NCBI RefSeq assembly: GCF_964213995.1
Contig: NW_027590156.1
Location: forward strand, 1 to 64,000
DNA: 64,000 nucleotides
Reading direction: 5' to 3'
Origin: Mustelus asterias
Taxonomy: Eukaryota
A program made the translations under genes and the position numbers. Shown here piece by piece: positions 2,890-56,799 of this stretch (positions within the stretch are counted from its first letter, which is position 1; each line of letters starts with the position of its first letter). The notes beneath the pieces are model-generated. The model saw nothing but the letters and a program-made list of their open reading frames with translations. It made no database searches and was not told the DNA's origin.

Positions 2890-3376
2890 TAAGCAGACAG
2901 CGGATTCACTTGGTGTGATGCTGGGTTCCAGTTCTACATATGCAATCATACATTCAACTTATGTCAGTTGCTGTTCATCCATTTTGTCTCATAGTTTGTA
3001 ATTATTGGATACTAAAACTGCGCAGAATGTTCCATATGTGTTCCCCGCAAAACCTTGTACAACTGCAGCAACAATTCGTTATTCTTGTTCTCCAGTCTAC
3101 TGGCAACAAAGGCAAAAATGTAATTCCCCTTCCTAAATGTTTGCTGCAACTCAACGCTAGCTTTATGCATTCCATCTACAAATACTCCTCGGATTCTTTG
3201 AATATCAGCACCAACGTTCCCACCTTTTCAAAAATGTTCTGCTCTTTCTATTTTTACGAAAAGGTGAATGCCTATTCACTGTCCAAAATTGAACCCGCCC
3301 TTATCTGTGCATTAAAACTTGCCATATGGCCAGTCTCGCTGCCTTGTCCCTACAGATCATATGTGTTTTAAGCTGA

Positions 3377-3443
3377 AGTTCCAGCGAGAACTCACGAGCC
3401 CAGGCTTACAAAACCAACCATCTAATCACTGAGCTATGGAACC
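3377..3443 (-). pseudogene. tRNA-Thr(TGT) pseudogene
   Basis: Reverse complement GGTTCCATAGCTCAGTGATTAGA...TTGTAAGCCTGGG; T-arm partly deleted. Confidence 0.6.
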
Positions 3444-4140
3444 AATTGCCATTAAGAGCGCAGAGTGAGTGCCTCATTATCAGTGAAGTGAGGAACAGGC
3501 TGGATTTTCAGGTGGGTGATGTTTGATAGATGTGGAAATGTGAGATGGGGAGCAGAGTTAAACGATGCAACTTGATAGCGGCAGAGTGTGTCCGTTACTT
3601 TAACTGAAGAATGAATGCCATGGTATCCTTCTTTAGAGCTCAACTCTGAAATTTCCAGCTCTGGGACAAGTTCATCCAGCTAAAAGATTAACCGTGTTAC
3701 ACCCTTCACAGACACTGTGAGGCCTGTTTTCATTTAATGAAGAAATCAACAAAAAGTTATTCACTCCATGGCTGAGAATCAAATCTGCTACATGTCACTG
3801 AAGCCATGCCACTATACCCCCAAGGAAGCTGATGTGAGACATTGGAAATTAGATGATCATTACCACTGTACTTCAAGTTAAATAACATTCATGAAAGCTT
3901 TGTCATTTTACACTGACATTTTAACATCTTATAAACAATTGCATCAAAATGCGTTATTTCCGCTTGTATTCACGTTATTTCACTTCCTGGGACTGAGCAA
4001 TTTCCACCTTCAAAATGTGTTGTTCAGTTAACCGTTTGTCATCAGTCCCGGGCTCTGGCGCTGAAACCATTGACTCTCAAACACTGAACCACCCGGGCTC
4101 CACTATCACCTGCTCAATTTTGCCCTGTCTATCATTCCTT

Positions 4141-4358
4141 GTAAGAAGTTTAACAACACCAGGTTAAAGTCCAATAAATTGAGTTTGTGACTTTATAAGC
4201 TCTGTTTGTGAACAGAATTCCCACTCACCTGAAGAAGGGGCTTGGAGCTCCGAAAGCTTGTGTGGCTTTTGCTTCCAAATAAACCTGTTGGACTTTAACC
4301 TGGTGTTGTTAAACTTCTTACTGTGTTTACCCCAGTCCAACGCCGGCATCTCCACATC
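4141..4358 (+). mobile_element. Short Penelope-like element end with a 34-bp inverted repeat and target-site duplication
   Basis: Perfect inverted repeat 4141-4174 / 4288-4321; direct repeat ATCATTCCTTGT at 4131-4142 and 4356-4367; paralogous empty site at about 12126-12165. Confidence 0.75.
4226..4262 (+). ncRNA. Minimal type I hammerhead ribozyme motif
   Basis: CAC-CTGAAGA-A-GGGGC-TTGGA-GCTCC-GAAA-GC-TT-GTG: conserved CUGANGA and GAAA core, stems I and II, palindromic AAGCTT helix III. Confidence 0.65.
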
Positions 4359-4813
4359 ATTCCTTGTGTCAGTTAATCCATCCTTTCTTATTCTTTATCC
4401 TGGATCCCCCTTGTGTTTTTTTTTACGGCGTGGTTCCTGATGATCATAAAATGCTGGAAATACTCAGCAGATCAGTTAATGTTTGGTGACAAAAGAGAAT
4501 AATTCTGAAATTAACAGCATTCTGAAAAGTCCCTGCCCGGTTTCGACGCTGAATCCTTTCACGTATGAGGAGAATTTGATAACCACCACACGATAGAAAA
4601 ATGACGATATTCGAAATGGAAGCAGATCTGGGTTTCTGGAGGAGCAACTAAACTGGTTCTGCAAGCCCTTGAACTCCTCACATCAATTTACATTTGCATT
4701 GTTTTTGCTGGTTCCTTCTGTCACAATTCATAATTATGCATTCCAATGCATTAAATTTTTGTGATCACATGTTCGGGCAAAGGTATTTCATTACGTTTAA
4801 AGTCAGCAGGATA

Positions 4814-11630: not shown

Positions 11631-12321
11631 ATATTAAGACTTAATTATTTTTATAAACAAACCAGCAATACTTCCTGGTCCAAAGCAGTTCTGCCAGAAT
11701 CGGTGGAGTGAGATTTGCAGTTTTGCTTCCGAGTTGGAAATGTCACACGTGCAACAGGTCAAGAACAAACACAAATAGTGAAAAACAGTGATATGATGCA
11801 AAACGCTGCCGATAGAGGTAGTGATACAAGGGAAAATCTGGGTGGTAATGGGTCAGATTTAACCGTTTGCATTGACAGAAATATCACTCATTTCTGGATA
11901 ACATTCTCGGGCTAAATTACAAGAAAACCTCTCCATGAATGAAATACTAAACTATTTGACTTCGACTGATTGCAAGCAGTTTTCATTCAGAAAGCAGTAA
12001 TTGTGAAATTTACAAAGCGGGATGGAGAAAGACTCAGTTTCAGCGGTGACACTGCGGGAGGAATGGAGAGCTGGAGTACACTGAGAAAAGCAGCAAAGTT
12101 TAAACATAACCGGAACCAACCAATGTTGCCCTTGACCGTTATTCCTTATGTCAGTTAATCCATCCCGTCTGACTCACTGTCACAGACCTTCCCTTTTATA
12201 TTCTTTACTGAGTTATTTCCGCTTGAAATACCGGAGAAAACTCAATAGTTCAACTCAAGTTTCGTGATAAACGAGGATAACTCTGTAATCCGAACCACTT
12301 TGAAACAAAGCCATCGGGAAA

Positions 12322-56584: not shown

Positions 56585-56712
56585 TGACTGACGTGATGAA
56601 CGAGCAGCGCTTGGAAAGCTCGTGATTCCAAATGAACCTGTTGGACTTTAACCTGGCGTTGCGAGACTTCTTACTGTGCACACCCAAGTGCAACGCGAGC
56701 ATCTCCACCTCA
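56585..56712 (+). mobile_element. Second copy of the 4141-type Penelope-like end, with 10-bp TSD and mutated hammerhead
   Basis: AACCTGTTGGACTTTAACCTGG...CATCTCCAC homology; TGTATTCACT at 56575-56584 and 56713-56722. Confidence 0.75.
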
Positions 56713-56799
56713 TGTATTCACTCGAGTTTAGAAGGATGAGAGGAGATCTGATTGAAATACATAAAATTGTGATTGCAACATTCAAAGCATAAAAAATGA

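What the first reader, a model, noticed from the sequence alone, without database searches (positions are those of the whole stretch)
4131..4367. Intact minimal hammerhead ribozyme motif inside a 220-bp Penelope-like insertion bounded by a long hairpin
Seen: CAC-CUGAAGA-A-GGGGC(UUGGA)GCUCC-GAAA-GC-UU-GUG at 4226-4262, with a complete catalytic core, an extra A after A9, and helix III reduced to the palindrome AAGCUU. It sits in the loop of a perfect 34-bp inverted repeat, is flanked by a 12-bp direct repeat, and a paralogous empty site exists at about 12126-12165. Established: Penelope-like elements carry minimal hammerheads whose palindromic helix III is thought to form by dimerisation, and an extra A between A9 and G10.1 occurs in the CChMVd viroid hammerhead. 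Inference: this is a young non-autonomous, possibly self-cleaving retroelement family in sharks.
Basis: partly seen in the sequence, partly recalled or inferred. Interest (0 to 1): 0.7.

Follow-up and report, generated by a model that had tools for sequence, protein, structure and literature searches.

The report
Penelope hammerhead stub with cleavage footprint
This is a short leftover copy of a known kind of jumping gene that carries a small predicted self-cutting RNA motif, and about 1,600 copies of the same family in this genome begin exactly at the predicted cut, which likely records the ribozyme cutting in living cells.

Summary
The motif, the perfect 34-bp inverted repeat and the 12-bp direct repeat are real, and 17 close paralogous loci carry the empty site. 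It is not a non-autonomous family. It is the 3' end (ribozyme plus 36-nt tail) of an autonomous Penelope-like element, which has intact 892-893-aa RT + GIY-YIG copies and a 3,097-bp tandem unit. The 'hairpin' is the usual inverted, 5'-truncated second arm. Minimal hammerheads, the extra nucleotide after A9, inverted arms and a one-sided tail are all published features of these elements. Two motif patterns give 126,698 matches in this genome. What goes beyond my literature searches: arms begin at the predicted scissile bond about ten times more often than 4 nt upstream (1,615 versus 163 genome-wide; 41 of 96 arms in an 11-position window), and two sister subfamilies agree. That likely records cleavage in vivo, which reviews call unknown; reverse-transcriptase stalling is not excluded. 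This window's copy runs 85 nt past the cut, so it came from uncut RNA. Earlier notes of this scan report the same footprint in this genome and in others; I found it before looking them up.

The parts
4131..4142 (+). left copy of the 12-bp target-site duplication; last 2 nt shared with the inverted arm
   Evidence: present once in 17 of 18 empty paralogues
4141..4174 (-). inverted, 5'-truncated, tail-less arm (unit positions 3027-3060)
4175..4360 (+). forward arm: 3' UTR / pseudo-LTR of the autonomous element from unit position 2915, through the tail, into the first 2 nt of the next start codon
   Evidence: about 95% identical to intact-ORF copies
4226..4262 (+). minimal type I hammerhead: stem I 4226-4228/4260-4262, core 4229-4235, extra A 4236, stem II 4237-4242/4246-4251, core 4252-4255, palindrome AGCU 4255-4258, position 17 at 4259
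4259..4260 (+). predicted scissile bond; the position where other copies of the family preferentially begin
4288..4321 (+). part of the forward arm that matches the inverted arm (3' side of the 'hairpin')
4323..4358 (+). 36-nt tail between the two alternative 3' ends; ends right before the ATG in tandem copies
4356..4367 (+). right copy of the target-site duplication; first 5 nt shared with the element's end
   Evidence: 92 of 129 columns identical to empty locus L053
1489..1669 (-). second distant empty paralogue of the target site
   Evidence: 126 of 172 columns

Best explanation
The insertion is a 5'-truncated, two-armed copy of the 3' end of an autonomous Penelope-like retrotransposon, and its minimal hammerhead likely cleaves a minority of the element's RNA in vivo, because family copies begin preferentially at the predicted cut. 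Shown: the parent unit is 3,097 bp with an 892-893-aa ORF (RT, Cys linker, GIY-YIG); the predicted cut lies 99 nt before the next ATG; two-armed insertions have direct repeats of about 12 bp and as a rule one tailed and one tail-less arm. Inferred: the endonuclease cuts both strands about 12 nt apart; each 3' end primes reverse transcription, one at each of two start sites 36 nt apart; the two cDNAs are joined head to head. Inferred: when the template was already self-cleaved, likely as a double hammerhead paired through AGCU and perhaps with protein help, the cDNA runs off at the scissile bond. This copy came from uncut RNA, has no ORF and a single ribozyme, and is likely a passive relic later duplicated with its surroundings.
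For: Identity: L031 near-full copy with inverted arm; 17,997 first-look RT candidates, 142 scored; 20 of 20 loci picked for 912/913-aa open frames have an 892-893-aa ORF starting right after the tail; RVT_1 E 4.3e-10; DKG, RT motifs, CX4CxxC and GIY-YIG-like motif in 21 of 21 proteins. Architecture: (44 of 45 two-armed rows have one tail, 0 have two; 29 of 29 among loci not selected for a tail; direct repeat 10-16 nt in 43 of 45, 12 nt in 23). Structure: 157 of 160 cells paired, against 27.5-58.8% for slid controls; two-sided change in stem I in 7 of 20 sequences and in stem II in 1 of 20; position 17 never G in 223 motifs with that letter left free; GC at 15.2/16.2 in 218; extra A in 219. Footprint: 41 of 96 arms start at the cut; other bins 11, 9, 7, 2, 7, 3, 7, 7, 0, 2; binomial p 1e-17 for 39 of 90 marker-confirmed arms; 1,615 versus 163 genome-wide; 440 at a site 15 nt downstream for all subfamilies together, of which 4 of 30 inspected by eye were truncated copies with this family's marker; sister subfamily with U at 17: 17 of 35 at the cut; subfamily with A at 17: 32 of 48 within 0-2 nt. 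Both arms start exactly at the cut in L206, L303 and L324.
Against: No RNA-level or biochemical evidence was obtained. In the anole element, ribozyme mutants did not affect insertion in vitro and no RNA-seq ends were found at the cut (PMC11167929). Metazoan minimal hammerheads cleave weakly even as dimers (PMC4209133). Monomer stem I pairing probability here is only 0.04-0.14. The peak has a downstream shoulder: bins -1 to -8 hold 8, 7, 1, 1, 5, 4, 2, 2 against 11 at the cut, partly mixed with a sister subfamily. The two pattern designs disagree on the size of the excess, because acceptance depends on the partner arm. The 3' foot of an AAGCUU duplex coincides with the cut, so stalling would give the same peak in U17 subfamilies. 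About 3 of the 17 sister arms could be sequence variants rather than breaks. 4 of 36 cut-ending arms with a partner showed no tail on either arm. Compensatory changes are few independent events. GIY-YIG scored below Pfam's cut-off on the fragment (21.5 versus 22.6) and was not listed for the whole protein.
Confidence: 0.75

Rival explanations
1. Same element, but the ribozyme does not cut in vivo: reverse transcriptase stalls at a paired or protein-bound structure (the palindrome duplex or the folded core) whose edge falls on the scissile bond.
For: The AAGCUU duplex ends at position 17 (-4.3 kcal/mol). In the A17 subfamily, breaks at 0 and 1 nt cannot be told apart. Cleavage was dispensable in vitro.
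Against: The more stable stem II gives no comparable peak (7 and 7 arms at k=7 and 8 versus 41 at k=0). A polymerase would meet stem I first, 3-4 nt downstream of the cut, where bins hold 1 and 1. The core, the exclusion of G at position 17 and stem covariation are kept.
Confidence: 0.15
2. The peak marks a transcription start site of the pseudo-LTR promoter rather than a cut.
For: The pseudo-LTR is thought to hold a promoter. Earlier AI notes report fixed starts and capped-leader copies in related genomes.
Against: The peak tracks the scissile bond in subfamilies with different flanking letters. The letter before the break is G in only 1 of 17 arms of the sister subfamily, so there is no cap-G signature (the signature is recalled). 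The earlier notes place their start upstream of the motif, not at the cut.
Confidence: 0.05
3. One reading: a young non-autonomous family of 220-bp hairpin elements that copies itself as a unit.
For: 7 loci share the exact layout. Non-autonomous retrozymes derived from these elements are described (10.64898/2026.07.22.740005).
Against: The 7 loci share flanks at 98.8-100% and group together on the flank tree: one insertion, later duplicated. Independent copies have arms of very different lengths. There is no tandem array here, which that preprint's definition requires.
Confidence: 0.03
4. The inverted arm arises by fold-back self-priming on one cDNA instead of a second priming event on RNA.
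For: Palindromic and hairpin-loop junctions are frequent, arm lengths are often similar, and self-priming has been proposed (PMC3846280). In this window the short arm lies wholly within the long one.
Against: In 15 of 36 cases the arm ending at the cut lacks the tail while its partner has it, so the partner holds sequence that the first arm lacks. The anole protein extends both strands.
Confidence: 0.15

Closest known systems
Minimal hammerheads (min-HHR) in pseudo-LTRs of metazoan Penelope-like elements (Cervera and De la Pena 2014, PMC4209133; parts 1-2 of 4 read)
   Same: Type I, no real helix III, palindromic 15.2/16.2, extra nucleotide between 9 and 10.1, G10.1-C11.1, many subfamilies, mostly single dispersed motifs from truncated copies, pairs on opposite strands.
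   Different: 126,698 pattern matches here (arms, not insertions) against about 4,000 and 9,000 reported for coelacanth and Xenopus with another descriptor. The parts I read name no shark and say in vivo evidence is absent.
C-terminal EN+ PLEs of the Neptune/Nematis type (Craig et al. 2021, PMC8557442; passages read)
   Same: Single ORF with RT, CX2-5CxxC linker and C-terminal GIY-YIG; partial tandems; inverted 5'-truncated copy; 30-40-bp tail often at one end only.
   Different: No tree with reference elements was built, so Neptune versus Nematis is open. The one-tail rule and the 12-bp duplication are counted here. No microsatellite targeting is apparent in the duplications listed.
Poseidon of Anolis carolinensis, PAc (Frangieh et al. 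2024, PMC11167929; parts 1-2 of 4 read)
   Same: Two reverse-transcription start sites bounding the tail; both target strands cut and extended; hammerhead near the ORF start.
   Different: In PAc the ORF starts in stem II and the cut lies inside the ORF; here the cut is 99 nt before the ATG and the tail ends at the ATG. PAc gave no RNA ends at the cut; here genomic copies begin there.
Non-LTR retrozymes (10.64898/2026.07.22.740005; part 1 of 5 and passages read)
   Same: Short, non-coding, carry a type I hammerhead, related to pseudo-LTRs.
   Different: Retrozymes are defined there as tandem repeats with at least two ribozyme units; this is a single insertion by-product.
R2 and other LINE 5' HDV-like ribozymes (PMC6765202, PMC7761336; passages read)
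   Same: Self-cleavage is thought to set the 5' end of the retrotransposon RNA.
   Different: Different ribozyme class, and here only a few percent of arms begin at the cut.

Membership tests
EN+ Penelope-like element | single ORF with RT and C-terminal GIY-YIG endonuclease in the parent | tested here: met
   Pfam GIY-YIG E 2.9e-4, just under the cut-off, on a fragment; motif in 21 of 21 proteins
EN+ Penelope-like element | tandem or partial tandem copies forming pseudo-LTRs | tested here: met
   3,097-bp period in L071; upstream partial copy in 20 of 20 loci
EN+ Penelope-like element | inverted 5'-truncated arm, 30-40-bp tail at one end, target-site duplication | tested here: met
EN+ Penelope-like element | RT groups with PLE RTs in a phylogeny | not tested
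   no reference sequences on hand; no PDB relative at E<=0.01
Neptune/Nematis type | CX2-5CxxC linker between RT and EN | tested here: met
   CX4CxxC at residue 754 in 21 of 21; definition
Neptune clade | phylogenetic placement apart from Nematis | not tested
   no tree with references
PLE minimal hammerhead | complete core, stems I and II, extra nucleotide 9/10.1, palindromic helix III remnant, position 17 not G | tested here: met
   core invariance is built into the search patterns and is not itself a test
PLE minimal hammerhead | covariation in stems | tested here: met
   2 of 8 pairs with two-sided change, but 219 of 500 shuffles reach that number of pairs; few independent events
PLE minimal hammerhead | self-cleavage as a dimer | not testable with these tools
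   indirect only: 5' ends of copies at the scissile bond
Canonical type I hammerhead (Rfam models) | match to a curated model, stable helix III | tested here: not met
   no hammerhead family among 10 hits at E<=10
Non-LTR retrozyme / non-autonomous family | tandem units with two or more ribozymes, or a fixed short unit copied to unrelated sites | tested here: not met

The most novel reading that the evidence does not exclude
The shark-type Penelope hammerhead cuts inside the transposition complex, and its AGCU kiss pairs two element RNAs on the protein dimer, so each target strand gets a template: one primed at the tail end, one 36 nt inside. That would explain at once the two-armed insertions, the one-tail rule and the insertions whose two arms both start at the cut. 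Against it: Naiad elements make inverted insertions without hammerheads, and arm lengths are coupled even without cleavage.
Probability: 0.2. Interest if true: 0.75.

Novelty: new member of a known kind. Interest (0 to 1): 0.48.

Why it matters
The locus itself is one ordinary stub among more than a hundred thousand. [quoted passage not shown] If the excess of 5' ends at the scissile bond is a cleavage record, genome sequence alone shows that the ribozyme acts on RNA being reverse-transcribed and gives a rough cleaved fraction (at least 3%, perhaps about 5%, of arms). The test can be run on any genome rich in these elements. A young family with many intact, nearly identical ORFs (99.3-100% among 18 proteins) is also good material for biochemistry.

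Tried and rejected
Rfam scan: no hammerhead hit; the MIR5048 hit only reflects the hairpin. Search with the decayed copy at 56585-56713 returned mainly duplicates of that locus, so it gave little covariation. RNA: no RNA holder listed; the one raw-read run laid 0 reads and the three contig sets cannot show ends, so nothing is concluded on expression. No PDB relative. Test for a fixed start upstream of the motif: the walk stopped at subfamily polymorphisms (27, 28, 36 nt), and true breaks 1-25 nt upstream were spread out (5 of 29 unselected arms), so it is inconclusive. Partner-arm test: 36 of 42 partners of cut-ending arms do not pass the cut by more than 2 nt, against 8 of 17 controls (p 0.006), but control partners are short too, so I give it little weight. 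AAGCUU as a 6-bp helix III rejected. CChMVd parallel set aside as unnecessary. Rows left out before counts: duplicate loci of one insertion (91 loci examined; L013 gives 3 rows, two of them doubtful, and L137 gives 2); 4 of the 100 rows collapsed as identical contexts; 9 of 92 arms without a subfamily marker, which covers rows 1-90; one search set 2 holds 84 arms from a hand-picked part's 100 rows, leaving out rows read as intact or internally deleted. Lunse et al. 2017 could not be read; I saw only its title and how reviews cite it. One search returned an unrelated paper, unused. No supplements were read; those of PMC4209133 and PMC11167929 (Fig. S2) may bear on shark motifs and on genomic ends.

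Full report
Observation. The sequence at 4226-4262 is as described. A descriptor asking for the core, both stems and a palindromic helix III remnant finds only this hit in the window, and 1 of 200 shuffles gives any. The 34-bp inverted repeat and the 12-bp direct repeat are perfect, and the region folds with z -8.8 because of the repeat. Rfam has no matching hammerhead model. The proposed empty site is a distant paralogue (92 of 129 columns). A search with the left flank fetched 25 of 40 scored loci: 7 filled, 98.8-100% alike in their flanks and grouped on a tree, and 18 empty, 17 of which carry the 12-mer once. The duplication is therefore real, and the seven identical layouts are one insertion copied with its surroundings. 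The insertion is older than about 1% and probably younger than about 4% flank divergence.

What it is. The forward arm matches 40 of 40 scored places at 92-100%. Independent copies continue upstream into a common sequence, and L031 shows a near-full element with inverted arm, partial tandem and a broken ORF. An RT fragment gives 17,997 first-look candidates, 142 scored. All 20 loci picked for 912/913-aa open frames hold an 892-893-aa ORF that starts right after the tail, and L071 is a 3,097-bp tandem. The protein has an RT domain, DKG, a CX4CxxC linker and a GIY-YIG-like motif in 21 of 21 copies; Pfam's GIY-YIG score stays just under its cut-off. The linker is the mark of the Neptune and Nematis clades (PMC8557442, passages); I built no tree. 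In the unit, the predicted cut lies 99 nt before the next ATG and the tail is 36 nt. The window holds unit positions 2915 to the end forward, and 3027-3060 inverted.

Insertion architecture. Among 91 loci, 45 two-armed rows were resolved: 44 have one tailed and one tail-less arm, none has two tails, and 29 of 29 follow the rule among loci not chosen for a tail. Direct repeats are 10-16 nt in 43 rows and 12 nt in 23; two L013 rows are doubtful. In a second set, 32 of 36 had one tail, 4 none and 0 two. Inverted truncated copies and a one-sided tail are published (PMC8557442; PMC3846280, passages). The anole protein cuts and extends both strands and starts at two sites that bound the tail (PMC11167929, parts 1-2 of 4). 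I infer a staggered cut with one priming at each site. Simple fold-back is disfavoured, because in 15 of 36 cases the partner has a tail that the cut-ending arm lacks.

The ribozyme. Two non-overlapping patterns count 78,455 and 48,243 motifs, with 0 for reversed controls; these are arms, not insertions. In 223 distinct motifs from fetched loci (a selected set with some duplicates), the first pair of stem I is C-G in 170, U-A in 39 and U-G in 8; the third pair of stem II is G-U, A-U or G-C in 80, 73 and 65; position 17 is U, A or C but never G; the extra nucleotide is A in 219. On a hand-picked alignment of 20, 98.1% of cells pair against at most 58.8% for slid controls, though only 2 of 8 pairs change on both sides. 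This matches the published minimal hammerhead, including the extra nucleotide (PMC4209133, parts 1-2 of 4). As a monomer the window copy forms stem I with probability 0.04-0.14, in line with the dimer model (PMC6765202, section 11 part 2).

Footprint of cleavage. If cut RNA is reverse-transcribed, copies should begin at the scissile bond. A pattern selecting arms that break within 11 positions at or upstream of the cut has 1,571 matches. For the first 100 listed, 96 distinct arms were scored by script: 41 at the cut, then 11, 9, 7, 2, 7, 3, 7, 7, 0, 2 (p 1e-17 for 39 of 90 marker-confirmed arms against 1/11; a few arms belong to the same insertions). Genome-wide, 1,615 arms begin at the cut with two foreign letters before it, against 163 four bases upstream. 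Fifteen bases downstream the count is 440 for all subfamilies under a stricter filter; by eye, 10 of 30 inspected are intact variants and 4 are truncated copies with this family's marker. A two-sided pattern gave 11 at the cut, 1 upstream and a shoulder downstream (8, 7, 1, 1, 5, 4, 2, 2), partly from a sister subfamily whose own cut falls at -2. In the subfamily with a different stem I and U at 17, 17 of 35 arms begin at the cut, about 3 of them ambiguous. In the one with A at 17, 32 of 48 begin within 0-2 nt, blurred by A-rich junctions. Three insertions have both arms exactly at the cut with 2-3 letters between. 1,615 is 3% of the 48,243 intact motifs of this class; correcting for the filter gives roughly 5% (my estimate).

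Rivals. Stalling at the palindrome duplex would give the same peak and is not excluded, but the stronger stem II and the foot of stem I give none. A start site at the bond is unlikely: the peak follows the bond across subfamilies and 1 of 17 junctions has a G. Against cleavage mattering: it was dispensable in vitro and unseen in anole RNA-seq, most arms pass the cut, and this window's arm passes it by 85 nt. RNA data here were no test.

Novelty. The element and motif are new members of known kinds. Ten literature searches found no paper reporting genomic copies that begin at the hammerhead cut, nor a shark study of these motifs; subscription papers, Lunse et al. 2017 and supplements were not seen. 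A 2020 review calls the in vivo activity unknown (PMC7761336, passages); PMC6155905 (passages) added nothing. After my counts I found that earlier AI notes report the same footprint in this genome and others; look-ups by sequence and place gave nothing. Those notes are not independent support. Verdict: an ordinary stub of a known class, with a family-level signal that makes an open question testable; interest 0.48.

Noticed in passing
window 1-64000; G000 C71, C91, C124 and small contigs: The window lies in a heavily duplicated region with tRNA genes: ARAGORN lists 6, a weak tRNA-like Rfam hit lies at 3376-3443, and the target site has at least 40 paralogues.
   Followed up: partly
window 56585-56713: Decayed copy of a sister subfamily with a broken hammerhead core and the tail; duplicated at dozens of paralogous loci.
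   Followed up: partly
L003-L007, left direct repeat: 5 of the 7 filled paralogues carry one substitution in the left copy of the duplication; the window and L002 keep both perfect.
   Followed up: no
L066 2762-2944; L070 2289-2469: Independent insertions of the same element family in two of the empty paralogues, at other sites.
   Followed up: no
L151, L153, L174, L016, L009, L015, L161: The two arms of many insertions end within 20 nt of each other in unit coordinates, even far from the ribozyme, which suggests coupled synthesis; others differ by hundreds of bases.
   Followed up: partly
L193, L199, L285, L299, L283: A recurring junction in which one arm starts at or next to the cut and the other 6 nt downstream, leaving a hairpin with a 6-nt loop.
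   Followed up: partly
L071-L090: The intact 893-aa proteins are 99.3-100% identical (mean 99.7%, 18 proteins), so one subfamily looks very young; its stem II wobble sits one pair away from the window's.
   Followed up: partly
L125, L142: Some sister copies continue after the tail-less end with a different common sequence, perhaps another tail type.
   Followed up: no
window 4520-4590, minus strand: By eye this resembles a degenerate tRNA gene (recalled pattern; not called by ARAGORN or Rfam).
   Followed up: no
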